Part shown: positions 2,515 to 42,721 of the stretch, in pieces
Layout: each line of letters starts with the position of its first letter
How positions within the stretch are numbered: the stretch's first letter is position 1
IMG/VR virus record: IMGVR_UViG_3300050128_000053
Span: 1 to 64,000 of that record
Reading direction: 5' to 3' (one strand)
Source: a virus
Length of the DNA: 64,000 nucleotides
Position numbers and translations under genes: made by a program
Notes under the pieces: model-generated
What the model was told of the DNA's origin: nothing
Seen by the model: the letters and a program-made list of their open reading frames with translations, nothing else
The model's database searches: none

Positions 2515-2757
2515 TCATCGTCCCGACCATTCAGCCCACACCTTGCCTTGGCGCATTTCAAGGTGCCAGAACCCCGGCCTGACTTCATGCGGGGCTGGCT
2601 GTTGACACGCTCCGTAACCGGGATCAACGACACCACATCGACCTGTTCGCTTGTACCAGCGGGATCGGCGCTCTGTCCCGATTATCCGGCGCTCAAAGCG
2701 GGCATGCTCCGTCATTGGAACCGATGACGATGCGACGTAGACGTACTCGGGTTTCAT
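2515..2757 (-). CDS. Hypothetical protein
   Basis: AGGAGG RBS before MKPEYVYVASS. Confidence 0.45.
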   Translation of the reverse strand: MKPEYVYVASSSVPMTEHARFERRIIGTERRSRWYKRTGRCGVVDPGYGACQQPAPHEVRPGFWHLEMRQGKVWAEWSGR

Positions 2758-2876
2758 GTGTCCTCCTGGGTGATTGAAGTGACATGGTAAAGCCAAGCGC
2801 TGTCGGTCACCTGGCGCCTGCCTCTTGCACCGTCATCGGGCGGTCGAGGTCGTGCGGACCCCCGTAACGCTCACGA

Positions 2877-3404
2877 TCACGCCTCGGTCGGCTTGAACTG
2901 CCACTGCTCAGTCTGCTCGGTGAGCAGACTCTCGTATTCCTTCTCGGTCAGCACCTTCTTGAAATAGAGACCCGAAACGGCATCGACATCGACATCGACG
3001 GTAATGGTGACGTTGGGGAGGCGCACCTGAAGGTCGCGGATGGTCTTCTCCTGAGCAGCGTCGAGCCACAGACCCTTCTTGCGCAACAGGGCCTCGGTCT
3101 TCTCAGGATCAGGCAAAGGGACGGCCGGCACCAAATGGCGCTCAGCCTTCAGAGCGATGTACTGATGCACCTTGCCCTTGTGATCCTCAAACTCAACCGG
3201 AGCCGAAAGCGGCAAATAGACGTGACCGTCCTCACCCGAGCGACCGCCGGAAAAAGTCTCGTCGAGCAGACGTAGACGTAGCTCTTCCTGACGGATCTTG
3301 AGGGCGGCGGCGTCATCTTTGATACCGAGCCACTCGGTGAACCGCCGAACGAGACTCGATGCCGAGCGCTGGCGACGAGGCTTTGCTGCAGTAGCTGTGG
3401 CCAT
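2877..3404 (-). CDS. Hypothetical phage protein
   Basis: 175 aa, AAGGAGG RBS. Confidence 0.7.
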   Translation of the reverse strand: MATATAAKPRRQRSASSLVRRFTEWLGIKDDAAALKIRQEELRLRLLDETFSGGRSGEDGHVYLPLSAPVEFEDHKGKVHQYIALKAERHLVPAVPLPDPEKTEALLRKKGLWLDAAQEKTIRDLQVRLPNVTITVDVDVDAVSGLYFKKVLTEKEYESLLTEQTEQWQFKPTEA

Positions 3405-3439
3405 TTCTGGCCTCCTTTATGAGTAGTGAGGGAAGAACC

Positions 3440-3468
3440 ATTGTAGCAGGTTCACCCTCAGGGTCCAA
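3440..3468 (-). promoter_or_regulatory. Sigma70-type promoter TGGACC-17-TACAAT
   Basis: Near-consensus -35/-10 with 17-bp spacer upstream of the 3404 start. Confidence 0.55.
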
Positions 3469-3520
3469 TGATTACGAAAGGACAAGATAGCGGGTGGGTG
3501 TATCAAGCCTCTGAACTGGG

Positions 3521-5065
3521 CTAATAGCGCTCAGAGAGAAAGTCGACCAATGTGCCGAGACTGAGGTGGAAGTCCCCCTCCCGAGTCACCCCCTTTCCGT
3601 CGAGCCATGCCGCAGCGATCTTTGACTTCTCCTCGAGCATCTCGGCTTGGCGCTCCTCTATCGAGCCCCGAGTGATCATCGACAGCAGTGTCACCTCGGG
3701 CCACTCCGAGCTAATGCGGATGATGCGCCCATTTCGCTGGTCGAACTTTCCAGCGCTCCATGGAAGATCGAAGCTCAGTAAAAAGTTCGCCACAGGAATG
3801 TCAACACCGATGCCGCCAGCATCTGACGATAGAAGCACCCTGCAGTGATCCTGACTAGAGAACCGTTCCACTGCTGCGTCACGTTCCCTCGGTGTCAAAT
3901 CACCGGTAAACAACTCATGGTCGACACGCAACTTGCTGCTGATTATGGCGAGCATCGGTTTGAAGAAGCTGAAGAGCACGACCTTGTTGTGAGGATCTGC
4001 GTCGAGGATGTCGCCGATGAGACCAAGGGTTTCCTTGAGTTTGTTCGATATGGGCGGCAGGGTGTCGAGTGCCCCTGTGTTACGCAGTTCCGCTAAGTAC
4101 CTGGACCCCGCCTTGGTGTCGGGGTCGTCGAATGCGTCAGCTGAGTACGTGAGAAGAGCTGGGTGATCGCACAGCATGCGCAAAGCCATAAGGCGCGGCA
4201 TGACCTCCCCTTGGATCCCGCCCTCTTCAGTACCGGCGTAATGGTCGTAAACGTTGAAACTGGCAAAACTCGGACTCGAATGGATAATAGAGATCAGCTC
4301 ACCGGCAATGCGCCGGTAAAGACGTTTGGAGACCGGATCGAGATCGATGTAGTAAGGCTTCTCGACCACCGCCGGCATTTGTTCCCTGATATCGGGGTCA
4401 CTGCGGGTCTTTCGGTGCATGGCCGTTTTCATCGTGCGACGAAGCAGCTTGAGATTTCGGTAATGGCTCACCGTACCGTTCGACCGCCGAGCTATGAAAG
4501 TCCGCTCAAACTTGAGAGCATCACCGAGCACGTCTTTGTCAATGAACTCCATGAGGGAGAAAAGCTCTTCGGGCCGGTTCTCGATCGGCTGACCCGTGAG
4601 CCCAAATCGATAAGGGGTCCGAAGCCGCTTGATGTGACGAGATCTTGCCGCTCGGGGGTTTTTCACAGCGACCACCTCGTCACACACCACAGCGTCGAAA
4701 TCAAGCAACCGCACAATGTCCCAATCGGCCACAATCTGCTCGTAGTTCATAATGACGTACTCGAGATCACCTCGACGAACGGTCCTGTACTGCAGCTTCC
4801 GCTTCCCTTTGTCGCCTTCGATGACCTTGACCAATGCGCCGTCGGTAAACCGATCGATCTGGCGCTTCCATTGCCATTTGATTGATGCTGGGCAGATGAT
4901 GAGGACACTCTGGATTTTTCCCTCATCAATGAGTTGCTCCGTGGCGGCAATGGCTTGGACCGTCTTCCCAAGCCCCATGGAGTGAGCTAGAAGAAACGCT
5001 TTACGATCAACCATCCTGGCCACCGCTTCTTCTTGAAATGGGAGAAGCGTCCCCTTGAACGTCAT
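3521..5065 (-). CDS. SNF2-family (DEAD-like) helicase
   Basis: HSMGLGKT Walker A, VVCDE, LTGQPIENRPEELFSL, Q-x-x-GRIIR. Confidence 0.9.
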   Translation of the reverse strand: MTFKGTLLPFQEEAVARMVDRKAFLLAHSMGLGKTVQAIAATEQLIDEGKIQSVLIICPASIKWQWKRQIDRFTDGALVKVIEGDKGKRKLQYRTVRRGDLEYVIMNYEQIVADWDIVRLLDFDAVVCDEVVAVKNPRAARSRHIKRLRTPYRFGLTGQPIENRPEELFSLMEFIDKDVLGDALKFERTFIARRSNGTVSHYRNLKLLRRTMKTAMHRKTRSDPDIREQMPAVVEKPYYIDLDPVSKRLYRRIAGELISIIHSSPSFASFNVYDHYAGTEEGGIQGEVMPRLMALRMLCDHPALLTYSADAFDDPDTKAGSRYLAELRNTGALDTLPPISNKLKETLGLIGDILDADPHNKVVLFSFFKPMLAIISSKLRVDHELFTGDLTPRERDAAVERFSSQDHCRVLLSSDAGGIGVDIPVANFLLSFDLPWSAGKFDQRNGRIIRISSEWPEVTLLSMITRGSIEERQAEMLEEKSKIAAAWLDGKGVTREGDFHLSLGTLVDFLSERY

Positions 5066-33549: not shown

Positions 33550-34806
33550 CTAGTTGGTGTTTCCGATTACCACGCTCCAATCTGTGATAAGTCCGAGGCC
33601 CCATATTGCATACCAGGCCAGAGCGTGCTCACGACCGAAGTCGAGGACCCCGCCGTCGCGCAGTTCCACCGGCAAGGAGATGGCATGCCCGAAGGCGTTG
33701 TCACCCAAGAAGATCGCCTGGTAGACGTTCTGTGGCGTGGCGGCCGAGCTGAGGAACGAGTTGACCTGTGTGGTCTCGATGAACACGCAGTCGTACAGCC
33801 GGCCGATCTCTCCGAGGGCGAAGTTGCCCGGGGCAGCGTACTTGGTCACTTCGATGAACTCAGGAGTGTCACGCAAGCGACGGCTCTGAGCCGGGGCCAC
33901 GAACGAGACATAGGTCTCGCCCAGTCGAGGCACGTTCTTCGACGCCAAGGTCAGAACAGCATCCTTGACCAGCGGCGGCGTGAAGTAGTACTGACCGCTC
34001 AAGCCCGTGGTCGAAGTGCCGACGGTGCCCTGATCATACGGCGAGAGCGTCGTACGCGGTGTGTCGTTGACCGTGGTGTTGTACCCGAAGATCACCGAAC
34101 TGGCCAACAACAACGTGTTCCGCGCCGAGTAGTCGAGGTACTGGGCCATGTTGCGGCCGAGCAACCGAGACGCCGACGCCATGACATCGTCGAAGGACGC
34201 ATTCAGCAGCAGCTCGGTCACCGAGACGCCGAAGCCTTGCTCTGCCACCGTGATGGAGAACTGGCTGGCCGTCAGGGCCACGGTCTGCATGCGGACGCCT
34301 TCAACGAGCTGTGAGGCATTCGGCAGGTTGTTGTAGCGCATGAAGTTGATGGTGAGCCCAGGCTGAACACCTAGTTCCGTCTTCTTCACGGCGAACTGCT
34401 CGAAGCGCAGAATCGGCATCGCTTGGAACAAGATCTCTTTGGCAAACTGTTACCACCGTTTCCGGCGGGGTGATCATTTCTGTCACCCTCTGCAGATTTA
34501 CCATCCCTGCAGATCGGACTGTATCTTCATCTTCAGCACCAGCACACTTCTCACCTAAGTGCTGATCCTCTTGAAGATGTCTCCCGTGCAGTCTCTACGG
34601 AGTCCCAGGTGTTGGGTTCCCTCGGTATTCCCCTTTGTTGGCGGGGTTCACCGATACAGGGAGATCATGATCTCATCGGTCACCCGATGAGACGGCCCTT
34701 ATGTCGACCAAATTGTCTGGATTGCTTGTCCAAGCGTGCTATTGGCACCGGAATACCCGGTGGGGGAAGCGGCCAAATAAGGCGTCCCCGTCACGGCTGA
34801 GGGCAT
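33550..34806 (-). CDS. Major capsid protein, spliced: join(34707..34806, 33550..34442), 330 aa
   Basis: AGGAGG-ATG at 34806; removing 34443-34706 gives ...IQTIWSKEILFQAMPILRFEQFAVKKTELG...; N4-gp56-like/HK97-fold motifs. Confidence 0.9.
34443..34706 (-). ncRNA. Group I intron, 264 nt, no ORF
   Basis: 5' exon ends in U with UGGU/GCCG P1; terminal omega-G; P2 UCUCAUCGG/CCGAUGAGA; P3 UCUCCC/GGGAGA; P4-P5 AUCGGUGAACCCC..GGGGAAUACCGAG; P7 GUAGAGACUG / AAGAUACAGUCC; P9 hairpins. Confidence 0.9.
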
Positions 34807-36415: not shown

Positions 36416-39400
36416 TCAATCGTCGTCGCCCGATGAAAGCGGATTACGACGCTGCGGGATCTTGGTGCCGGCGGCAAGGGTGGTGAGCTGATTCATGATC
36501 GACTGGACCTCGGGAGTATCGGCAAACTGGGGCGGTGGCGCTTGTACACCGGCCGCTGTATTCACGCCCGGGCCACCAGCCGAAGACACTCCCCCAGCGT
36601 CACCTCCAGGGGCAGGACCAGTCGACGATGGCGATGGCGGATCGGCACCATCAGGCGGTACCCCGGTAAGCATTGAAATGAGCACCCGGATCTGGGCATT
36701 CTGCAAATCGAGAGCACCTTGTTCAAGGGCATCTTGATGCAGTTCGTCCATAAGTTCCTGCAGCTTCTCGGCTGGATATTGCTCGCCCATGAGGCGCAGG
36801 GCCCCGGTCTTGGATTCAAGACCCATGCCCATTTTGAGCTGCAACTCATTGAGAAGGACCAGCATGTCAAGCGGTAGCGGGGACTGGAACTCAACCGTAT
36901 TGCGGTAAGTAATAGGGTCATTCGGGTCGAGAACCGTGACCTGACCCTCTTCAAGCGGTGGATCGCGCAACGGATCGATCTCGAGCATCTGGGGCAAATA
37001 TGTCGCCGCCGTGAGGATCAACAACTCATTGAGCATGGCCAGGCCCGAAGACATCTGGGTCGTCTTTTGACGGAACTTTTGCATCAGCGGAAGGTATTGC
37101 AAAGAGAGCGCCACGCCCGATGTATTGCTGATCTGCTGTTCTTGGCCGAGCAAAGAAATGGGCACACCGACCAACTCGTGCATCTTCTCTTTGAGCAGTT
37201 CTAAAAACTTGATCGCCTCACCCAACTCAGCCCCGAGAGCGAGATTCTCAATCTTGGCCTTCTCATTGGGGATGGACCATACCTTCTTGGGTCCCCGCTC
37301 GAGGCTGTTGGATTTCGCTCCCATGATGACTGTGGTGGGGGAGTTCCCGGTCCAATAGGTGTTCCCATTACGGCTCGCCATCCAAATGCTGTTTTTAACA
37401 GTTGGGCACCAGACGGTCACATCTTCAACATCGACCGTCTTTGCAGACTTCAATGTCGACTCAACCTCAATCGATTGGCGGCTGTACTTGTCAATAAAGT
37501 TGCCTCGGGTATTGACCCGATCCCCCAACATCGCATTCAACATGCGATAACCCTCTTTACGAGCACCGTCCTCCTGATACCACGAGCTTCGCTTTTCTGT
37601 AATCCAGTGGCCATCTGCATCAACAAGAATCTTCTGAAGCATTCGAGCTTGGGTGTACGTCAGCGAGTAAATAAAGGACGGGGAGAGTACCTTCTTAGGA
37701 GCGACCTCCTCCAAAGTCTCTTTCACCCCTTTACCCAGATACCAGTTATAACAGCCGTTATCCATCGGCTTTGCCGATTCAGTAAAGGTGCCTCCACTGC
37801 GTTGCCAATACCGCATCAAACGTCGAATAGACCGCACATGGTCAGGGTTCTTTGTCCAACTCTGACTTATGGTGATGGAGTGCCAATCATTCGGCCCGCT
37901 GTAGGCGTCACAACCTTCCGTGATATACCAGCCAACAGTCTCGACCAACTCGTCGTCCCACTTCGGCTGAGCTGCAAAAGCAAACGATGTCCCACCCCCC
38001 ACCACCAAACGAGCATGAGACTTGAAATCAGCTAAAGCTGGTTCCTCAGCATCCCCAATCAAAGTTCGACCAATACGTCGAGCATCAAGTGGGTAGATCT
38101 GCTTTCTCGTCTTACGTTGCTCTACCAACCAGCGATGATTAGGGGTTACGAGGGCGTCAATGTGGTTAGACAGGTGAACGAGAGATCCCGTGTACGACTT
38201 GGAGAAAAGAGACTCGACCGGCTGCCATTCAATCTCATCAGTAGACGAGTTAAGAGTGAGGATCTCATCTCCAACAGTCAACTCGTCATGCTTCTTCCAA
38301 CCCTCCGGAGTCAGAGCCAGGGTGGTCTCATCGACACAGGCGTAGTAATTAGTAATGTCCATCAGCAGGGTGGCCGTCTCGTTGTACGCCCGATTCAAGT
38401 CTGTGATGTCTTGGATGTCTGAAAGACCCCAAGGCGATGACGGCACCTTCTTGTTCGCTATGTGGACGAAAGGAATGCGCCCCAAGGGGTTCTCTTGATC
38501 CTCCACCAACTCGTCATTGATAAAACTCTGCATCGAACTTTCAGTCCACAACTCGGTAAACGAGTTCCCTGTCCAATACGTACAGCCATTACGACGCGCA
38601 AACCAAGTACCAGACGGGGTCGTAGGACACCAAACTTTTCCTTGATAACCCTCCTCAGAAACATGAAGTCGCCTTGCCGTAATGTAAGGAGAATGGTAGA
38701 CCGTTACGTTTGCGCAGTTATTCAAATCTCCACGCTTTTCTTTATGCTGCCTCCACCACTCTGATGCATCACTCTTCCACCAATGGGTAAAGCTCCTCCT
38801 TCCGAGCATGGCAGTGAGCATTTGGAATCCGTCAATGAGGCCTTGATCTTGATTTATGAAGTTCTCCGTCTCAACAGTCCGCGTAAACCCATCGTGATTC
38901 CGAAGAACAGCGTAATGCCCATCCCCCTCAAGAAGGGTGTGGTAGAGAAGCTCTGCTTGATCCATTGTAAGAGCACCAAGAAACTCTGGAGTCAGTGTCT
39001 TGTTCGGAGCAACTTGGCGAATAAGGTTGCCAATCCCGCTACCAAAATAGAACTGCCGACACCCTTCATACTTGGTTCCGTCATTGTAATCAGTATTGAG
39101 TTCTGTTGCAGTTGCCCCTTGCGCAGAAAATGCCTTCTGAAGATATCTGATGCGAGCGACCAAGTTGGGATTACTAGCCTCAGACTGACCAATCGTCACA
39201 GCAGTCTTTGCCGGAAACTTCGGGTAATGCCCTTCAGTAACAGCCCAACCAATAAGTTCAACAAAGTCGTCTGAAAAAGTTGGCCATTCTGCAAAGGAGG
39301 ACAAATGCCCTCCAGCCGCAGCCCCAATAATCTGCTTGTTTGAGTGACCGGTGCTTAACTCTTCCGTTGTCATGAACCGAATGGGCCGATTTAAGTTCGG

Positions 39401-41258
39401 ATAGGAATAACCATCCCGATCTCGGTATTCTACGAGCCACCGGTGATTTGGAGTCGAGAGGGCGTCCATTCGATCGGTCTGCCATCTGGTAAGTGAACCG
39501 TCCCAATCGAACACATTGACGGCTGTGTGCTCTTCCCAACGAACCTCGCGCGTCACAGGATCCATCACAAGGAACTTGTCGTCGTCCTCGATGTTGTCCC
39601 AACGCTTCCAACCAGAAGACGTCAAAGCTTCAGTAGTTTCGTCCTGGCAAAATACTTGGCGGGTTCCCTCTAATGCCGTCCCCCAAAATCTGTACTTCAT
39701 CTTGAACCGGATCACCCGAGTCATGTCGTGCGGGTGGTACATAACTCGGGGAAACAGTTCCCCGTAATGTAAACCGTATTACGGAAAATATTTCCCCTAT
39801 CTGCACCAGCACCGCTTGCAGGAGTCACCTCCTTCCTGCGTGTGACCCATGTTCCTACAGAGGTGGTTGGGCACCATACTCGCCCTCTGTAGTGACGAAC
39901 CGAACGATTCATCCATTTCATGTTCGCTGTCCGACTGTGATGCACCCCAACGGTGCCGTCTCGACCTCCAAACTTTCCTCTAGGCGTATCAGAGACCTTT
40001 GAAATGCTTCGCTTGCCGAGCATCATGGCAAGCATTTGAAAAGAATCAATCAACCCGAGGTTGTTCTGGTAAAGACGCTCTCGACCGCCAATGCGTGCTG
40101 TCTCCCCATCCCCGTCGAGAAGTGTATTGAAAAGCAGTTCCGCTTGTGGGCGGGTGAGGTTTGTGAGGAAGCCTGAATCGATTTCCTTTTCCTCATGCAA
40201 AACGGCTTGGACCTGACGACCGATTGTTACCGGAAAATACCACTGAAGGAATCCGTCTGACCGCTCGTAAACAGACCCCTGAAAGTGGTGACAGAGCTTG
40301 TCAATACGTTCACAAAAGTCGGGATGAACACGAGGACTTTGCCCAACACAAACAGCCGAAGAATCAAACCAGCCTTCCGCAGCCACCCAACCCACCAGTT
40401 CTACAAACTCATCAGAGTGCTCTGGCATAGTCGGGAAATGCTTTAGTTCGCCGCCCGCCAAGACCAGAGACCCACCAGTCACCTCATGCAGCTCTGCTGT
40501 GGATCGCATCCCCCGGGTTCCACGCTCACCTGAGGTGTCATAGATCCATCGGTGGTCGGCCGTCGTGGCAGCACTGAAGTTCTTGCTACGCCATTCGTAT
40601 AGGGGGCCGTCCCAGTCAAAAACGTTGATCCGCCCCACCCGAGACCAAACCAGCTCGTCGGTCTCGTAGTCAAGCACCAGAGCTTCGTCCCCAACTCTTA
40701 CCTGATCAGCATTGAGCCAACCACGCTTAGTCAGGATTTCGTTCTCGTCGGCCGGCATGCAGAAAGCGCTGTTGAGCGGCAGGATGCGGATACGCGCCGG
40801 ATGCTCATAACCCGCCGGATCGACAAATGATTCTTCGAAAGCCACCTTTACGAACGAGTCGCCTGATACAGAAGATTGCTGCATAATTTCCCACATGACA
40901 GCGTCTTTGCCTTGGGGCTGATGCTCTTCCCAGATGGTACGCAGAAGCTCGGGGACAATGGCCTCAGTTGCTTTGGGCGATTTGAAGTAAGTGCCGTTGG
41001 TGAGGCAGAAGTTGGTCAAGAAGTCGCTAAAGGCAGCCGACCAGTTGAACGTGAGCTGAGGCTCACCGATTTCGCGACGGTAGCTCCAATGATGGCCTAA
41101 GTAAAAAGCCCAGTTGCTGGCGTAGCGATTCAAGCGAGGTCCATGAACCTCGATCTAAACTCCTCATCCGCTAACTCAACCAGGCCCAAGGGGCTGATGG
41201 CAATCGTTAGGTCTGAGGAGGCTGCACGGTAACTGGGTGTCACAAAACTAATGGCCAT
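36416..41258 (-). CDS. Portal protein precursor interrupted by two 5-nt insertions and three inteins (about 581 aa after removal)
   Basis: Start MAISFVTPSYRAASSDLTIAISPLGLVELADEEF; portal motifs GDSFVKVAFE, NPLGRIPFVH, PWGLSDI, ISNTSGVAL; split over three ORFs. Confidence 0.85.
37343..38338 (-). mobile_element. Portal intein 3 (332 aa)
   Basis: A|CVDETT, VTPNHRW, VGWYITEG/LVDADG LAGLIDADG-like, VWCPT...TGN|S. Confidence 0.9.
38564..39649 (-). mobile_element. Portal intein 2 (362 aa)
   Basis: F|CQDETT, STPNHRW, IGWAVTEG/LLEGDG, VWCPT...TGN|S. Confidence 0.9.
39757..40761 (-). mobile_element. Portal intein 1 (335 aa)
   Basis: F|CMPADE, TTADHRW, VGWVAAEG/LLDGDG, VWCPT...TGN|C. Confidence 0.9.
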
Positions 41259-41265
41259 TGTGCTT

Positions 41266-41940
41266 TCACCCCCTTCCCGGCTGAGACACGCTTTGCTTCC
41301 TAAGCTCACGCACTTTGTTGGCTATTTCCTTGCGCCGTTCCTCCGTGAACGGCCAACAGTTGCTCTTTCGGATATTGCACAGATCACACGAAGGCATAAG
41401 GTTATCAATCGTATGAGTTCCACCTGCTGTCAAGGGCTGATAGTGGTCCCAGTGGAGGTTGTTCGTCAGGAGCATCTCACAGATGTGACACCGCCCTCCA
41501 AACTCTGCAAGACGAAGGTCGAACTGTTCCGCTGAAATGACCTCAACCAAAGTGCCAGCCTTTATGGCACGCCGTCTGCTCTCACATCGCTGCGTTGCCT
41601 TTCGGCGCTTCTCAGCGATCTCGGGTATTTTGCCTCGCTCAACATGGCGCTTGTAACGCTCTTCTCGATTGGCCACATGATGGACTCGAAGCCGCTCTTT
41701 CGACCACTCAGGGTGATCAATGTGGTATTGGCGTGCCTTAGTGATTTTGGTCGCCGGATCAGCAGCATAAATCTCTCGTGCTCGCTGATTACGCTTCTCT
41801 CGGCGGTTATCGTCAGTAACCTTCACACACAACTTACAACGGGGACGTCGTCCGTCTCTCGATGCAGAATCCTTGTGGAAATCAGTGAGTGGCTTGGAGA
41901 TTCCGCACCCCTTGCAAACTTTCACATCAACTGCTGTCAT
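41266..41940 (-). CDS. Free-standing HNH endonuclease
   Basis: KVCKGC..KPLTDF..CKLC; CHIC..HWDHYQPL..GGTH..NLMPSCDLCNIRK. Confidence 0.88.
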   Translation of the reverse strand: MTAVDVKVCKGCGISKPLTDFHKDSASRDGRRPRCKLCVKVTDDNRREKRNQRAREIYAADPATKITKARQYHIDHPEWSKERLRVHHVANREERYKRHVERGKIPEIAEKRRKATQRCESRRRAIKAGTLVEVISAEQFDLRLAEFGGRCHICEMLLTNNLHWDHYQPLTAGGTHTIDNLMPSCDLCNIRKSNCWPFTEERRKEIANKVRELRKQSVSQPGRG

Positions 41941-41959
41941 GGCGGCGGTCGTCCGCTTT

Positions 41960-42721
41960 TTACGGCGTGTCCACTCCGACCTTGGTGAATAGGGCGAACT
42001 GAGCAGCACTGATCGCTATGTCTGGGATGCCAGCCGAGGCAAACGCCGATAGATCGGCCGGGTCGGTGACGTGGGTGGCCACACCGCCCGAGACGAGGAA
42101 CACCTCGTTGCCCTGCGTGGTGAGGAACATGGTCGGAACCTTTCTGTTTGGGACATGGGTGGGCGGTGGTGTCGGTGAAGTGAGCCCGAAGAGGGCATCG
42201 AAATCGGCCTGAGACCCCACCCAGTGCGAGGCGTCGACCTCCACTGGGATCCCCGGCACACTGAGTGAATCGGTGTACTGCCAGCAGTCCCCGAAGCCGT
42301 AGTCCTTGCCGTAGCTCGCCGGCCAGAGCATGGCCCTGATCCCTGACCGAGGCAGTGTCGAGGCGCTGCCGTAATCCATCTCTTCATCGGCGCTCAAGTT
42401 GAGAGCGACAAGGAAGGCGTTCTGCCACCCACTGTTGGTGCTGGTCTCCGAGTCAAGGATGCGAGCTTTCGATCCGGCGACTGATTTGAAGTAGGCCGCT
42501 TCATCTGAAGCACTGGTGAAATCGGCGAAGTGATAGGCCACGTGGGCGATGTTGTGCGATTCAGCAAGGGCGGCGGAATCGGAGTAATACGGGTTGGTGT
42601 AACCCGTCCCCTGTGTGGCCTTGATGATGAGAGCAAGGACGTTCTCAGAGATCAGAACCCAGTCCCAATCAGCAGGGTCGCCATTGTCAGAACTGATGTC
42701 GATGATGTTTGTTGCCGTCAC
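41960..42721 (-). CDS. Endolysin, GH25 muramidase-like
   Basis: IIDISSDN, IIKATQG..YTNP, AYHFA, LDSE, WQYTD..VPGI..VD. Confidence 0.85.
   Translation of the reverse strand: MTATNIIDISSDNGDPADWDWVLISENVLALIIKATQGTGYTNPYYSDSAALAESHNIAHVAYHFADFTSASDEAAYFKSVAGSKARILDSETSTNSGWQNAFLVALNLSADEEMDYGSASTLPRSGIRAMLWPASYGKDYGFGDCWQYTDSLSVPGIPVEVDASHWVGSQADFDALFGLTSPTPPPTHVPNRKVPTMFLTTQGNEVFLVSGGVATHVTDPADLSAFASAGIPDIAISAAQFALFTKVGVDTP

What the first reader, a model, noticed from the sequence alone, without database searches (positions are those of the whole stretch)
39718..41165. Two matched 5-nt coding gaps in the portal gene: candidate recoding/micro-excision system
Seen: the portal frame breaks twice, and removing 5 nt restores it each time. 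Site 1 (about 41152-41157): GAT GAG GAG TTT [AGATC] GAG GTT CAT GGA CCT CGC. Site 2 (about 39738-39744): TTC CCC GAG [TTATG] TAC CAC CCG CAC GAC. Both can also be written GAGTT[5 nt]C, i.e. the same target context. A hairpin follows each gap directly (CGAGGT-TCATGG-ACCTCG; CACCCG-12nt-CGGGTG). The first in-frame codon of each gap (AGA, TTA) is rare in high-GC hosts. Site 1 has a GAGGAG SD-like element directly upstream and a near-matched take-off/landing pair (TTT to ATC). Sequence on both sides reads as intact portal, and removal gives ELADEEFEVHGPRLNRY and CFPE(Y/F)HPHD, matching my recollection of homologues (needs alignment). No other structural gene here is broken. Established: translational bypassing occurs in T4 gene 60. 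Inference: the essential portal is made by programmed bypassing or RNA-level removal of 5-nt micro-inserts, possibly limiting its amount or timing. Alternatives are a three-piece portal (site 2 creates an ATG), -1 slippage at T_TTC_CCC for site 2, or an assembly artefact.
Basis: partly seen in the sequence, partly recalled or inferred. Interest (0 to 1): 0.9.

Follow-up and report, generated by a model that had tools for sequence, protein, structure and literature searches.

The report
Ribosome-hop gaps in phage portal gene
An uncultured peat-soil phage has two genuine 5-base interruptions in its essential portal gene, each next to a selfish nuclease element, and related phages carry similar tiny inserts whose sequence pattern suggests that ribosomes hop over them.

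Summary
Both 5-nt breaks are real. They lie at 41152-41156 and 39740-39744 on the minus strand. Removing them restores exact collinearity with 572-aa reference portals. Contigs from an independent DNA run and from an RNA library bridge both sites unchanged. A co-occurring allele without intein 1 also lacks the site-2 bases.

The genome has a third gap (TGACCC) in another gene beside a second HNH gene; 40 of 40 relatives lack it.

I catalogued 16 gaps of 5-43 nt in 9 contigs. Ten begin with a stop codon and 14 with a stop, AGA or UUA. Fifteen end in a codon matching the preceding codon at 2 or more of 3 positions (P about 1e-8). N-terminal gaps track an upstream endonuclease gene (7/1 versus 2/63, P = 1.7e-7). 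Site-2 inserts occur in 6 of 6 alleles with one intein subfamily and 0 of 3 with another.

Best reading (0.6): inserts linked to homing endonucleases that protect the target site and are decoded by short ribosomal hops. This is a miniature of the T4 gene 60/MobA arrangement and akin to the phiHau3 UUA gaps. No protein evidence exists. This scan has unchecked notes of similar HNH-linked gaps on other DNA.

The parts
41266..42009 (-). Free-standing HNH/endonuclease VII-type homing endonuclease gene (247 aa). It ends 8 nt before the portal start codon.
   Evidence: Pfam HNH E 7e-6, above cutoff. PHROG 1035 E 2.8e-28. A 64%-identical homologue sits in the same position in L007, which has a gap at the same portal codon.
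41157..41258 (-). Portal segment A: 34 codons, MAISF...ELADEEF, ending in the take-off codon TTT (41159..41157).
   Evidence: 91% amino-acid but 70% nucleotide identity to the G001 portal, with dS saturated. Collinear with GiJojo and BRock residues 3-35.
41152..41156 (-). Coding gap 1 (AGATC). The first in-frame codon is the rare AGA. The last three bases, AUC, match the take-off UUU at positions 2 and 3 (wobble). A TAG in the target frame rules out a -1 slip at TTT.
   Evidence: Bridged unchanged by X2 record 19 and X11 record 7.
40762..41151 (-). Portal segment B: 130 codons, EVHGPRLNRY...RILPLNSAF.
   Evidence: 83% amino-acid versus 71% nucleotide identity to G001. 72 relatives found with this piece.
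39757..40761 (-). Intein 1 (335 aa; Cys1 ... Thr-Gly-Asn, followed by Cys+1) with a LAGLIDADG endonuclease domain; subfamily A.
   Evidence: Intein-less relatives and a natural empty allele join SAF directly to CFP. AlphaFold model pLDDT 89.7. Foldseek hits to TliVMA, PhoVMA, PI-SceI and PI-PfuI inteins, E 4.5e-11 to 1.8e-7, and to I-DmoI.
39745..39756 (-). Portal segment C: four codons, CFPE, ending in the take-off codon GAG.
39740..39744 (-). Coding gap 2 (TTATG). The first in-frame codon, UUA, is the rarest codon of this phage. The landing codon AUG matches the take-off GAG at only 1 of 3 positions.
   Evidence: Defined exactly by a co-occurring allele in run X2 that lacks both intein 1 and these 5 nt. 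Bridged unchanged by X2 record 17 and X11 record 5.
39715..39750 (-). 12-bp stem with a 12-nt loop. Its 5' arm holds the take-off codon and the whole of gap 2. The 5 inserted bases extend a 7-bp stem that already exists in the coding sequence.
   Evidence: ViennaRNA dG -28.7 versus -20.6 kcal/mol with the gap deleted; z -3.5 against 200 mononucleotide shuffles.
39650..39739 (-). Portal segment D: 30 codons, YHPHDMTRV...TRQVF.
   Evidence: 93% amino-acid versus 78% nucleotide identity to G001.
38564..39649 (-). Intein 2 (362 aa; Cys1 ... Thr-Gly-Asn, followed by Ser+1). No gap beside it.
   Evidence: Boundaries. 38% identical to intein 1 in alignment A2. Exteins collinear with the references. 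One X2 contig skips about 1153 nt here (table 5).
38339..38563 (-). Portal segment E: 75 codons.
   Evidence: dN/dS 0.095 against G001. The Pfam SPP1_portal match lies here.
37343..38338 (-). Intein 3 (332 aa; Cys1 ... Thr-Gly-Asn, followed by Ser+1). No gap beside it.
   Evidence: Boundaries. Weak Pfam Hint_2 match, E 0.005. 29% identical to intein 1 in A2.
36416..37342 (-). Portal segment F: C-terminal 308 codons plus the stop codon.
   Evidence: dN/dS 0.16 against G001. Collinear with GiJojo residues 273-571.

Best explanation
The two 5-nt inserts are genuine DNA-level 'coding gaps' in a functional portal gene. They belong to a recurrent class of 5-43-nt inserts that travel with homing endonucleases. 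Gap 1 goes with the free-standing HNH gene abutting the portal start. Gap 2 goes with one subfamily of LAGLIDADG intein inserted four codons upstream of it.

INFERRED ORIGIN. The insert breaks up the endonuclease's recognition site in a stretch whose amino acids cannot vary. That would make the carrier allele immune to its own nuclease, as reported for the 50-nt gap of T4 gene 60 and MobA.

INFERRED DECODING. The ribosome pauses with a stop or rare codon in the A site (AGA at gap 1, UUA at gap 2). The peptidyl-tRNA leaves its codon and re-pairs 5 nt downstream, so ...DEEF-EVHGPR... and ...CFPE-YHPHD... are made as one chain. The three inteins then splice out.

SHOWN: the reality of the gaps, their recurrence, their association with endonucleases, their sequence pattern, and purifying selection on all segments.

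INFERRED ONLY: the hop itself, its efficiency, and the immunity function.
For: 1. REALITY. Contigs of independent DNA run X2 and of RNA library X11 bridge both gaps with 0 differences. No insertion or deletion was listed. A co-occurring allele reads PLNSAF|CFPE|YHPHD without intein 1 and without the 5 nt.

2. LIVE GENE. All six portal segments show amino-acid identity well above nucleotide identity against G001. dS is saturated, or dN/dS is 0.10-0.16. Among 72 relatives the only indels in portal residues 25-60 are in L007 and L044, both gap-bearing.

3. RECURRENCE. There are 16 gaps in 9 contigs. Lengths are 5 (x5), 6 (x4), 8 (x2), 9 (x3), 11 and 43 nt; none is 1-4 nt. N-terminal gaps fall at eight different codons between portal residues 29 and 55. 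A reciprocal census of G000 against G001 flags only the known gaps.

4. TRANSLATIONAL SIGNATURE. Ten of 16 gaps start with a stop codon and 14 of 16 with a stop, AGA or UUA. Among frame-breaking gaps, which were not found through their stops, the figure is 7 of 9 (P = 5.6e-7). In 15 of 16 the last three bases match the preceding codon at 2 or more of 3 positions, allowing wobble (P = 1.1e-8); 2 of 16 match exactly. L128 has a 43-nt gap with CAC before it and CAC at its end, and an 18-bp UUCG hairpin that starts at the take-off codon.

5. ENDONUCLEASE LINK. The table of N-terminal gap against an HNH/EndoVII gene within 1.2 kb upstream is 7/1 versus 2/63, Fisher P = 1.7e-7. The endonucleases belong to three PHROG families. 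Site-2 inserts occur in 6 of 6 alleles with intein subfamily A and 0 of 3 with subfamily B. A third gap in this genome lies in the most conserved motif of another gene whose start a second HNH gene overlaps; 40 of 40 relatives lack it.

6. PRECEDENT IN PRINT. MobA and the gene 60 gap form one mobile element, and the insert protects against MobA (bioRxiv 10.1101/2022.08.31.505936, abstract and section 12 read). The 7-10-nt UUA gaps in the phiHau3 and prophage terminase genes have a junction peptide by mass spectrometry (PMC10732093, sections 19, 21 and 23 read).
Against: - No protein, ribosome-profiling or reporter data exist for any of these gaps.
- Gap 2 of the window is the one case of 16 whose landing codon matches poorly (GAG to AUG, 1 of 3). 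A -1 slip on T_TTC_CCC is an available alternative there.
- At six gaps the mismatch is in the middle codon position, which pairs badly.
- Exact take-off/landing matches are rare (2 of 16).
- Hairpins are not general. Of the 14 gap contexts folded, only three were exceptional (W2, L128a and L128b; the last two share one hairpin). The two L139 gaps were not folded.
- The association has exceptions. L044 has an N-terminal gap but no endonuclease was detected upstream. L130 and L134 have an endonuclease but no gap. Inteins 2 and 3 and subfamily-B inteins have no gap.
- L127's 6-nt insert has no stop and could simply be translated.
- In-frame gaps were found through their stops, so their stop content is partly ascertainment.
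- The negative loci include near-duplicates. Endonucleases were sought only as homologues of five query proteins.
- The immunity function is untested. For an intein it is not obviously needed, because the intein itself splits the target.
- The contig is estimated 63% complete, so a phage tRNA or a second portal copy elsewhere cannot be excluded.
Confidence: 0.6

Rival explanations
1. Conventional recoding that adds residues. At gap 2 a -1 frameshift on T_TTC_CCC would give CFP-RVM-YHPHD. At gap 1 there would be a +2/-1 event after AGA. At the in-frame gaps of relatives the stop would be read through. The portal would then tolerate 1-3 extra residues.
For: T_TTC_CCC fits the X_XXY_YYZ slippery pattern (recalled), and a strong hairpin follows it. 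L127 carries a stop-free 6-nt insert at the same place, which would give CFP-LP-RWHPHD if translated. That suggests two extra residues may be tolerated there.
Against: At gap 1 the -1 frame has a TAG inside the gap, and no slippery site follows. None of the 70 gap-less relatives has any amino-acid indel at either region. The third gap sits inside a motif that reads through unbroken, with only conservative substitutions, in 40 of 40 relatives. No tRNA, and so no suppressor, was found on the 88.9-kb contig. One mechanism would not cover gaps of 5, 6, 8, 9, 11 and 43 nt. It also would not explain the landing-codon similarity.
Confidence: 0.12
2. The gapped alleles are defective portals that hitch-hike with selfish endonuclease or intein elements. 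They would persist through co-infection with phages that supply portal protein in trans.
For: A gap-less, intein-less allele co-occurs in run X2. Homing elements can spread despite a cost to the host genome (discussion in 10.1101/2022.08.31.505936, section 12).
Against: All portal segments, including those downstream of each gap, remain under strong purifying selection. There are no 1-4-nt indels or other lesions in about 570 extein codons. The same gapped sequence is held in runs of many studies between 2017 and 2025: 24 rows from 23 studies, 7 of them holding at least half of the sampled words (only 4 runs were laid). Random knock-outs would not start with stop or rare codons and end with near-cognate codons.
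Confidence: 0.1
3. A split portal. Translation stops in or after each gap and restarts, so the portal assembles from two or three polypeptides. Candidate restarts are the TTGA stop-start overlap at 41133 and the ATG created by gap 2.
For: Gap 2 creates an in-frame ATG directly before YHPHD. The frame-A stop TGA overlaps a TTG in frame B. In L008 and L139 the stop overlaps a CTG in the downstream frame. Endonuclease-split genes that work as two proteins are known for T4 genes 39/60 and Aeh1 nrdA (10.1101/2022.08.31.505936, section 12).
Against: Most gaps offer no start codon in the downstream frame, for example L044 site A, the third gap of this genome, L129 and L133. No Shine-Dalgarno-like sequence precedes the ATG at a usable distance at gap 2. 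Restarting at the TTG would drop the conserved EVHGPR, which is nevertheless conserved in frame B. A 34-44-residue N-terminal peptide would have to assemble separately.
Confidence: 0.07
4. The 5 nt are removed from the mRNA by a micro-intron, editing, or cleavage and religation.
For: This genome does carry a self-splicing element: a group I intron match at 34490-34713.
Against: RNA-library contigs X11 records 5 and 7 bridge both gaps with the 5 nt present, although DNA in the library cannot be excluded and contigs drop rare variants. No Rfam family matched at the gaps. There is no shared structure or boundary motif among the gaps. Removal at RNA level gives no reason for a stop codon at the 5' edge.
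Confidence: 0.05
5. Assembly or sequencing artefact.
For: The source is a metagenome-assembled contig.
Against: Identical sequence appears in contigs assembled independently from another sample. Analogous gaps occur in eight further contigs from other metagenomes, some at the same codons.
Confidence: 0.01

Closest known systems
Phage T4 gene 60 50-nt translational bypass within the MobA (HNH) homing-endonuclease element. Source: bioRxiv 10.1101/2022.08.31.505936, abstract and section 12 read; PMC5009743, passages read. Bonocora et al. 2011 is known to me only through these.
   Same: An untranslated insert sits in a conserved gene next to an HNH homing endonuclease. A stop or 'hungry' codon stands at the gap start. 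The landing codon is related to the take-off codon. The insert lies in the nuclease's presumed target region. L128's 43-nt gap also shares matched codons and a UUCG hairpin at the take-off site.
   Different: The window's gaps are 5 nt, not 50. There is no sequence homology to the gene 60 cassette. The host gene is a portal, not a topoisomerase, and the gene is not split by the endonuclease. The landing match is imperfect. One gap is tied to an intein rather than a free-standing nuclease. At least three unrelated HNH families are involved, and gaps fall at many positions rather than one. Manning and Atkins call the gene 60 cassette 'unique'.
UUA-led 7-10-nt coding gaps in the large terminase genes of Streptomyces phage phiHau3 and two prophages. 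Source: PMC10732093, sections 19, 21 and 23 read. Smith et al. 2013 is cited there and was not read.
   Same: Short non-coding blocks break the frame of an essential late gene of an actinophage. They begin with a rare codon (UUA, as at the window's gap 2). Homologues are invariant at the junction. Bypassing is favoured over frameshifting.
   Different: Those gaps all start with UUA and are read as a sensor of host bldA-tRNA status. Here most gaps start with stop codons, and lengths run from 5 to 43 nt. That paper has 0 occurrences of 'homing', 'HNH' or 'intein', so no nuclease link is proposed. The host of the present phage is unknown.
Synthetic 'stop-hops' in E. coli: codon, stop, matched codon, so that 9 nt specify one amino acid. 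Source: as described in PMC5009743, passages read.
   Same: The in-frame gaps of relatives and the third gap of this genome have this layout (UUC UGA AUC; CUU UGA CCC; CCG UAG CUG). L128 has CCG UAG GUA CCG.
   Different: Those were engineered constructs. The review states that no natural occurrences are known. Here the flanking codons are mostly near-cognate rather than identical. The window's own two gaps are +5 events over rare sense codons.
Mitochondrial 'byp' elements of Magnusiomyces. Source: mentioned in PMC5009743 passages; details recalled.
   Same: Many short untranslated inserts in conserved genes that are skipped by ribosomes.
   Different: Those are 27-55 nt (recalled), mitochondrial, and thought to be mobile on their own. 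No endonuclease link is known to me.

Membership tests
Programmed translational bypassing (gene 60 type) | A non-coding block lies between two ORF parts that are collinear with uninterrupted homologues | tested here: met
   Removing 5 nt at each site gives exact collinearity. A natural gap-less allele exists at site 2.
Programmed translational bypassing (gene 60 type) | A slow-to-decode codon (stop or rare) sits in the A site at take-off | tested here: met
   AGA at gap 1 and UUA at gap 2, the fourth-rarest and rarest codons in this contig. The same holds for 14 of 16 gaps overall.
Programmed translational bypassing (gene 60 type) | Matched take-off and landing codons | tested here: inconclusive
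   Gap 1: UUU to AUC, 2 of 3 positions. Gap 2: GAG to AUG, 1 of 3. Across all 16 gaps, 15 match at 2 or more of 3 positions but only 2 match exactly.
Programmed translational bypassing (gene 60 type) | A stem-loop involving the take-off codon | tested here: inconclusive
   Met at gap 2 (z -3.5) and in L128. Not met at gap 1 (z -0.6) or at 10 other gaps.
Programmed translational bypassing (gene 60 type) | A nascent-peptide signal, and a single full-length product carrying a junction peptide | not testable with these tools
   Needs mass spectrometry or reporter assays.
Homing-endonuclease cassette with a protective insert (MobA-like) | An endonuclease gene lies next to the interrupted gene | tested here: met
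   HNH gene at 41266-42009. A second HNH gene lies beside the third gap. Intein 1 has a LAGLIDADG fold.
Homing-endonuclease cassette with a protective insert (MobA-like) | The insert and the endonuclease co-occur across relatives | tested here: met
   7/1 versus 2/63, P = 1.7e-7. Intein subfamily A 6 of 6, subfamily B 0 of 3. The exceptions are listed in the report.
Homing-endonuclease cassette with a protective insert (MobA-like) | The insert blocks cleavage of the carrier allele by its own nuclease | not testable with these tools
   Needs cleavage assays on gapped and gap-less targets.
Homing-endonuclease cassette with a protective insert (MobA-like) | Sequence homology to the gene 60 / MobA cassette | not tested
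   The gaps are too short for a homology test and I did not compare the nucleases with MobA. I file this as working like the cassette, not as a member of it.
Intein with LAGLIDADG homing endonuclease | An in-frame insertion at a conserved site, with Cys/Ser at position 1, a terminal Asn and Cys/Ser/Thr at +1 | tested here: met
   boundaries; 70 of 72 relatives uninterrupted. All three elements run C...TGN followed by C or S.
Intein with LAGLIDADG homing endonuclease | A Hint fold with an inserted LAGLIDADG domain | tested here: met
   Tested for intein 1 only. pLDDT 89.7. Foldseek E 4.5e-11 to TliVMA, then PI-SceI, PI-PfuI and I-DmoI. Sequence models are weak or silent.
Intein with LAGLIDADG homing endonuclease | Penultimate His (the usual His-Asn end, as I recall it) | tested here: not met
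   All three end in Gly-Asn. T333, G334 and N335 are invariant in the 11 aligned elements. I recall that inteins without the penultimate His can be active. Splicing was not tested.
phiHau3-type UUA gap | The gap begins with UUA in a late gene of a Streptomyces phage | tested here: inconclusive
   Gap 2 begins with UUA and gap 1 with AGA. The nearest cultured relatives are Streptomyces phages at about 50% identity, but the host of this contig is unknown.

The most novel reading that the evidence does not exclude
Short ribosomal hops may be a common, convergently evolved companion of homing endonucleases in phages. Whenever a free-standing HNH nuclease, or a particular intein lineage, targets a stretch whose amino acids cannot change, the carrier allele would be protected by a 5-43-nt untranslated insert. 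That insert starts with a stop or rare codon and ends with a near-cognate landing codon. These would be the first natural 'stop-hops'.

The portal N-terminus is then an arms-race hot-spot where three nuclease families have each selected different gaps at eight codon positions.

A bolder sub-reading concerns the intein-linked gap. The hop might need the intein's conserved C-terminal nascent peptide (...Y-[LIV]-T-G-N-C-F-P). Loss of the intein would then kill the portal, making the pair an addiction module.
Probability: 0.4. Interest if true: 0.9.

Novelty: new variant of a known kind. Interest (0 to 1): 0.8.

Why it matters
In the papers I read, natural translational bypassing is treated as a rarity. 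The T4 gene 60 cassette is called 'unique'. The phiHau3 gaps are described as 'languishing unknown'. Natural in-frame stop-hops are described as having 'no occurrences known'.

Here a single gene family supplies 16 short gaps. They show a clear statistical signature of P-site tRNA re-pairing and a tight link to homing endonucleases, including an intein, which I did not find reported in searches.

If confirmed, three things follow.
- Why bypass elements exist would become directly testable: as immunity to a selfish nuclease in sequence that cannot mutate.
- The gaps would give a graded natural series, from 5 to 43 nt, for studying how ribosomes hop.
- Gene callers would be shown to mis-annotate essential phage genes as broken or split on a systematic basis.

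It also bears on how much portal protein is made, since only 12 copies are needed per capsid (recalled).

Tried and rejected
- Megablast of the portal region against cultured phages found nothing.
- A pattern scan for homologues of the window's HNH protein in viral contigs confirmed none. Its homologue in L007 was found by tblastn instead.
- Pfam and NCBIfam gave nothing usable for the inteins. A PDB sequence search gave one weak intein hit, E 0.0038. The fold search settled the matter for intein 1 only.
- The ORF upstream of the portal in G003/L044 matched no family, so that contig stays an exception.
- I could not show that the window's HNH gene is a clean insertion relative to G001. The gene upstream of it has no counterpart there.
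- The first genome-wide census was swamped by off-frame matches and was replaced by a filtered one. Site 2 is invisible to that census because the intein splits the match.
- In one search my coordinates for inteins 2 and 3 were off by two bases, so those two queries were meaningless. Only the HNH and intein-1 rows of that call are used.
- In one search, X4's listed contigs do not bridge either gap. X16 record 10 ends 4 nt past gap 2. Neither is used as evidence.
- Loci L135-L138 (25-28% identity to the intein) gave no portal match and were left out of all counts. L134's intein sits at another site. L134's in-frame 'RLRMVRYA' insertion was not counted as a gap.
- I looked for a Shine-Dalgarno-like element as a shared signal. 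By eye only gap 1 and L007 have one (GAGGAG, which is the conserved DEE coding sequence). I did not quantify this.
- The idea that CTT TGA C works like the RF2 frameshift site was rejected. A +1 shift there does not reach the downstream frame of a 6- or 9-nt gap. The RF2 motif is from recall.
- I made no use of complex prediction, the search of protein representatives, the search for homologous proteins or the protein atlas.
- The supplementary files of PMC10732093, which hold the gap sequences and structures, were closed. They may bear on whether the phiHau3 gaps follow the same landing rule.


Full report
WHAT THE WINDOW IS

The window is bases 1-64000 of an 88,865-bp IMG/VR viral contig with an estimated completeness of 63%. 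Its portal N-terminal piece finds 72 related viral contigs. At about 50% identity it also finds the annotated portal proteins of Streptomyces phages BRock, GiJojo, pSt2308, LuckySocke and Alone3. Contigs of runs labelled peat or permafrost metagenomes hold the stretch: 24 rows from 23 studies, of which 7 hold at least half of the sampled words.

THE OBSERVATION

The portal lies on the minus strand and does change frame twice. Gap 1 is AGATC at 41156..41152, between TTT (Phe34) and GAG. Gap 2 is TTATG at 39744..39740, between GAG and TAC.

The 572-aa reference portals and the closest long relative G001 read ...ADEEFEVHGPRLNRY... and ...SAFCFPEYHPHD... without interruption.

Their coordinates are 40761..39757, 39649..38564 and 38338..37343. 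Each starts with Cys and ends Thr-Gly-Asn before Cys or Ser.

Intein 1 folds with confidence (pLDDT 89.7). It matches endonuclease-bearing inteins (TliVMA, PhoVMA, PI-SceI, PI-PfuI; Foldseek E 4.5e-11 to 1.8e-7) and the LAGLIDADG enzyme I-DmoI. Sequence models are nearly silent on all three inteins.

ARE THE GAPS REAL?

Yes. In one search, contigs of an independent DNA run (X2, records 17 and 19) cover 39432-40018 and 40778-41540 with no difference and no gap. Contigs of an RNA library (X11, records 5 and 7) cover 39518-39875 and 41103-41319, likewise unchanged. No inserted or omitted letters were listed for any of the four runs laid.

X2 also holds a contig that follows the window up to 39740 and then departs. 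Translated, it reads PLNSAF-CFPE-YHPHDMTRV in one frame. This is a natural allele with neither intein 1 nor the 5 nt. It fixes the boundaries of gap 2 and ties that gap to the intein.

The RNA-library result argues against removal at the RNA level, but only weakly. Contigs cannot exclude DNA carry-over or a minor spliced form.

IS THE GENE ALIVE?

All six extein segments, each read in its own frame, are far more conserved in protein than in DNA when compared with G001. For example, the 34 codons before gap 1 are 91% identical in amino acids and 70% in nucleotides. The 30 codons after gap 2 are 93% and 78%. dS is saturated or dN/dS is 0.10-0.16.

Among the 72 relatives, the only indels in portal residues 25-60 are in the two gap-bearing contigs L007 and L044. 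So this stretch does not normally accept inserted amino acids.

RECURRENCE

Of the 72 relatives, 70 read the portal as one uninterrupted frame. The exceptions and further searches give a catalogue of 16 gaps in 9 contigs.

1. Window: gap 1 and gap 2.
2. Same genome, beyond the window (G000 about 87316-87321): CTT[TGACCC]GGG. It lies inside the motif YPDGYLGTI of a roughly 180-codon gene whose start is overlapped by a second HNH gene. All 40 of 40 relatives lack the 6 nt.
3. L007: TTC[TGAATC]GAG, at the same codon as gap 1.
4. L008 and L139: TAC or TAT[TGAAC]GCC, after Tyr44.
5. L044: CTT[TGACCGCCC]GCC after Leu29, and CCG[TAGCTG]GAG at site 2.
6. L128: a 9-nt gap at site 2, CCG[TAGGTACCG]GAG. 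At site 1 there are two gaps of 11 and 43 nt, which leave the original EFEVH coding sequence intact between them. The 43-nt gap has CAC before it and CAC at its end, and it contains an 18-bp hairpin with a UUCG loop that starts at the take-off codon.
7. L127: CCA[TTACCT]CGC at site 2, in frame and without a stop.
8. L129 (the same record as L140): GCT[AGATCGTC]TTT after Ala49, and GAA[TAGCCCGTA]TGG at site 2.
9. L133: CAT[TGAAT]TGG after His55.
10. L139, site 2: GAG[TAACTAAG]TAC, at the same codon as the window's gap 2.

The lengths are 5 (five gaps), 6 (four), 8 (two), 9 (three), 11 and 43 nt. None is 1-4 nt, which is what decay or sequencing error would mostly produce.

A filtered reciprocal comparison of the whole of G000 with the 101-kb relative G001 flags only the known gaps. 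It flags none in G001.

THE SEQUENCE PATTERN

Ten gaps begin with a stop codon. Fourteen begin with a stop, AGA or UUA. In this contig's own long ORFs, UUA is the rarest sense codon and AGA the fourth rarest.

I found the in-frame gaps through their stops, so the fair test uses the nine frame-breaking gaps. Seven of those nine begin this way (P = 5.6e-7).

In 15 of 16 gaps the last three bases match the codon before the gap at two or three positions, allowing third-position wobble. The chance expectation is 0.25 per gap (P = 1.1e-8).

The 5-nt gaps are typically a stop codon followed by the last two bases of the preceding codon (TAC[TGA AC], CAT[TGA AT]). A +5 move then re-pairs the P-site tRNA at positions 2 and 3.

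This is what re-pairing of peptidyl-tRNA would select for. A knock-out, a split gene or an RNA-level excision would not require it.

The weak points are as follows.
- Only 2 of 16 landing codons match the take-off codon exactly.
- Six gaps mismatch in the middle codon position.
- The window's gap 2 is the single poor case (GAG to AUG).

Exceptional RNA structure is limited to gap 2 and to L128's long gap. Gap 2 has a 12-bp stem containing the take-off codon and the whole gap (z -3.5). L128's two site-1 gaps score z -2.5 and -3.7. The other 11 contexts folded lie between z -0.6 and +1.3. The two L139 gaps were not folded.

THE LINK TO HOMING ENDONUCLEASES

I scored 71 portal loci that had at least 700 nt of upstream sequence. 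I asked whether there was a gap in the first 75 codons, and whether there was a homologue of any of five endonucleases within 1.2 kb upstream. The result was 5/1 versus 2/63. Nine loci were left out: eight with too little upstream sequence and one without the N-terminus.

Adding L139 and L008 gives 7/1 versus 2/63, Fisher P = 1.7e-7. L008 was added because its 143-nt upstream stub encodes the C-terminus of the same EndoVII-type gene as L139.

The nucleases belong to three PHROG families: 1035, 2633 and 3377. The gaps that go with them sit at eight different codons between portal residues 29 and 55. That is what independent escape from nucleases aimed at one conserved stretch would look like.

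The exceptions are L044 (a gap, but no nuclease found) and L130 and L134 (a nuclease, but no gap).

There are two caveats. The negative loci include near-duplicates. Nucleases of other families would have been missed.

At site 2, an insert follows CFP or CFPE in 6 of 6 alleles carrying intein subfamily A, whose C-terminus is Y-[LIV]-T-G-N. These are the window, L044, L127, L128, L129 and L139. No insert follows in the 3 alleles carrying subfamily B (F-H-T-G-N; L130, L132, L133), nor in any intein-less allele. Inteins 2 and 3 of the window have no gap beside them.

HOW IT MOST LIKELY WORKS

Shown:
- The inserts are in the DNA.
- They recur.
- They accompany endonucleases.
- They carry a translational signature.
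- They sit in a gene that is still under selection.

Inferred:
This is what is reported for MobA and the gene 60 gap (bioRxiv 10.1101/2022.08.31.505936, section 12).
2. Ribosomes stall on AGA or UUA (stop codons in relatives). The peptidyl-tRNA then re-pairs downstream, which yields one chain from which the inteins splice out.

For the intein-linked gap the need for immunity is less obvious, because the intein already splits the target. Two possibilities are that this subfamily's enzyme reads mainly the downstream flank, or that the gap serves the intein in some other way. I put the whole reading at 0.6.

The rivals are:
- Frameshifting or readthrough that adds residues (0.12). This is most plausible at gap 2, through T_TTC_CCC.
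- Defective alleles that hitch-hike with the selfish elements (0.10).
- A split portal with restarts (0.07).
- Removal at the RNA level (0.05).
- Artefact (0.01).

No tRNA gene was found in the window or in the whole contig.

COMPARISON WITH WHAT IS KNOWN

The arrangement works like the T4 gene 60/MobA cassette, but it is not a member of it. There is no homology, the gaps are a tenth of the length, the host gene differs, and several nuclease families and an intein are involved.

It also resembles the 7-10-nt UUA gaps of the phiHau3 and prophage terminase genes. For those, a junction peptide supports bypassing (PMC10732093, sections 19, 21 and 23). That paper proposes a regulatory role tied to the host's UUA tRNA, and it never mentions homing endonucleases or inteins.

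The in-frame gaps have the layout of the synthetic 'stop-hops'. A 2016 review says that no natural occurrences of these are known (PMC5009743, passages).

A survey of actinophage inteins lists portal proteins among intein hosts. In the passages I searched it does not mention frameshifts or bypassing next to inteins.

My three literature searches found no report linking short coding gaps to inteins or to portal genes. The library lacks most subscription journals, and the supplements were closed.

Unchecked notes of this scan report similar HNH-linked short gaps in other phage genomes, including a 9-nt gap in another portal gene and UUA-led gaps in tail genes. One related claim was marked there as having partly failed a later check. 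I treat these notes as context only.

VERDICT

The better-supported frame is that of coding gaps linked to homing endonucleases. I class it as a new variant of a known kind and score its interest at 0.8.

Noticed in passing
With three inteins and at least two free-standing HNH genes, this phage is unusually rich in self-splicing and homing elements.
   Followed up: partly
G000:C1 about 87316-87321, minus strand (beyond the window; L076 about 3317-3322): A third coding gap, CTT[TGACCC]GGG, inside the invariant YPDGYLGTI motif of a roughly 180-codon gene of unknown function (no Pfam or PHROG family). A second HNH gene overlaps that gene's start (PHROG 2255, E 4.7e-32). 40 of 40 relatives lack the 6 nt.
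   Followed up: yes
several loci (window gap 1 and L129; L007, L133, L008 and L139; G000 third gap and L044 site A): Nearly the same gap sequences recur at different codons and even in different genes: AGATC(G), TGAAT/TGAAC and TGACC(C/G). This could reflect convergent selection for sequences that hop well, or a shared mutational source. It is unexplained.
   Followed up: partly
window 38521-39675, run X2 (table 5): One X2 contig skips about 1153 nt around intein 2, with only 36 letters on its shorter side. That suggests an allele without intein 2 in the same sample. Together with the allele lacking intein 1, this looks like a population polymorphic for inteins.
   Followed up: no
window 39757-39830 (C-terminal part of intein 1): Compared with three homologues, the window's intein 1 has about 7 extra residues (...ASGAGADRGNIFRN...) just before its last strand (alignment A1). 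The model's pLDDT drops there (blocks 311-330).
   Followed up: no
window 37343-40761; loci L044, L127-L133, L139: All 11 aligned inteins end in Thr-Gly-Asn, not the usual His-Asn. This lineage apparently lacks the penultimate histidine.
   Followed up: partly
L129 about 2634-3628: L129's portal holds a second insertion of about 1 kb after ...KYRFWG, at a site different from the window's intein 2. Its nature was not examined.
   Followed up: no
L134 about 1003-1020: A portal with an upstream PHROG 3377 HNH gene reads ...HGPRLRMVRYA... where relatives read ...HGPRLNRYA.... This is an in-frame 6-nt difference directly after a TTA codon. It may be a stop-free gap like L127's. I did not count it.
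   Followed up: no
window 41960-42721 (minus strand): The 253-aa ORF upstream of the HNH gene has no counterpart in the closest long relative G001, so gene order upstream of the portal differs between the two. The ORF was not identified.
   Followed up: no
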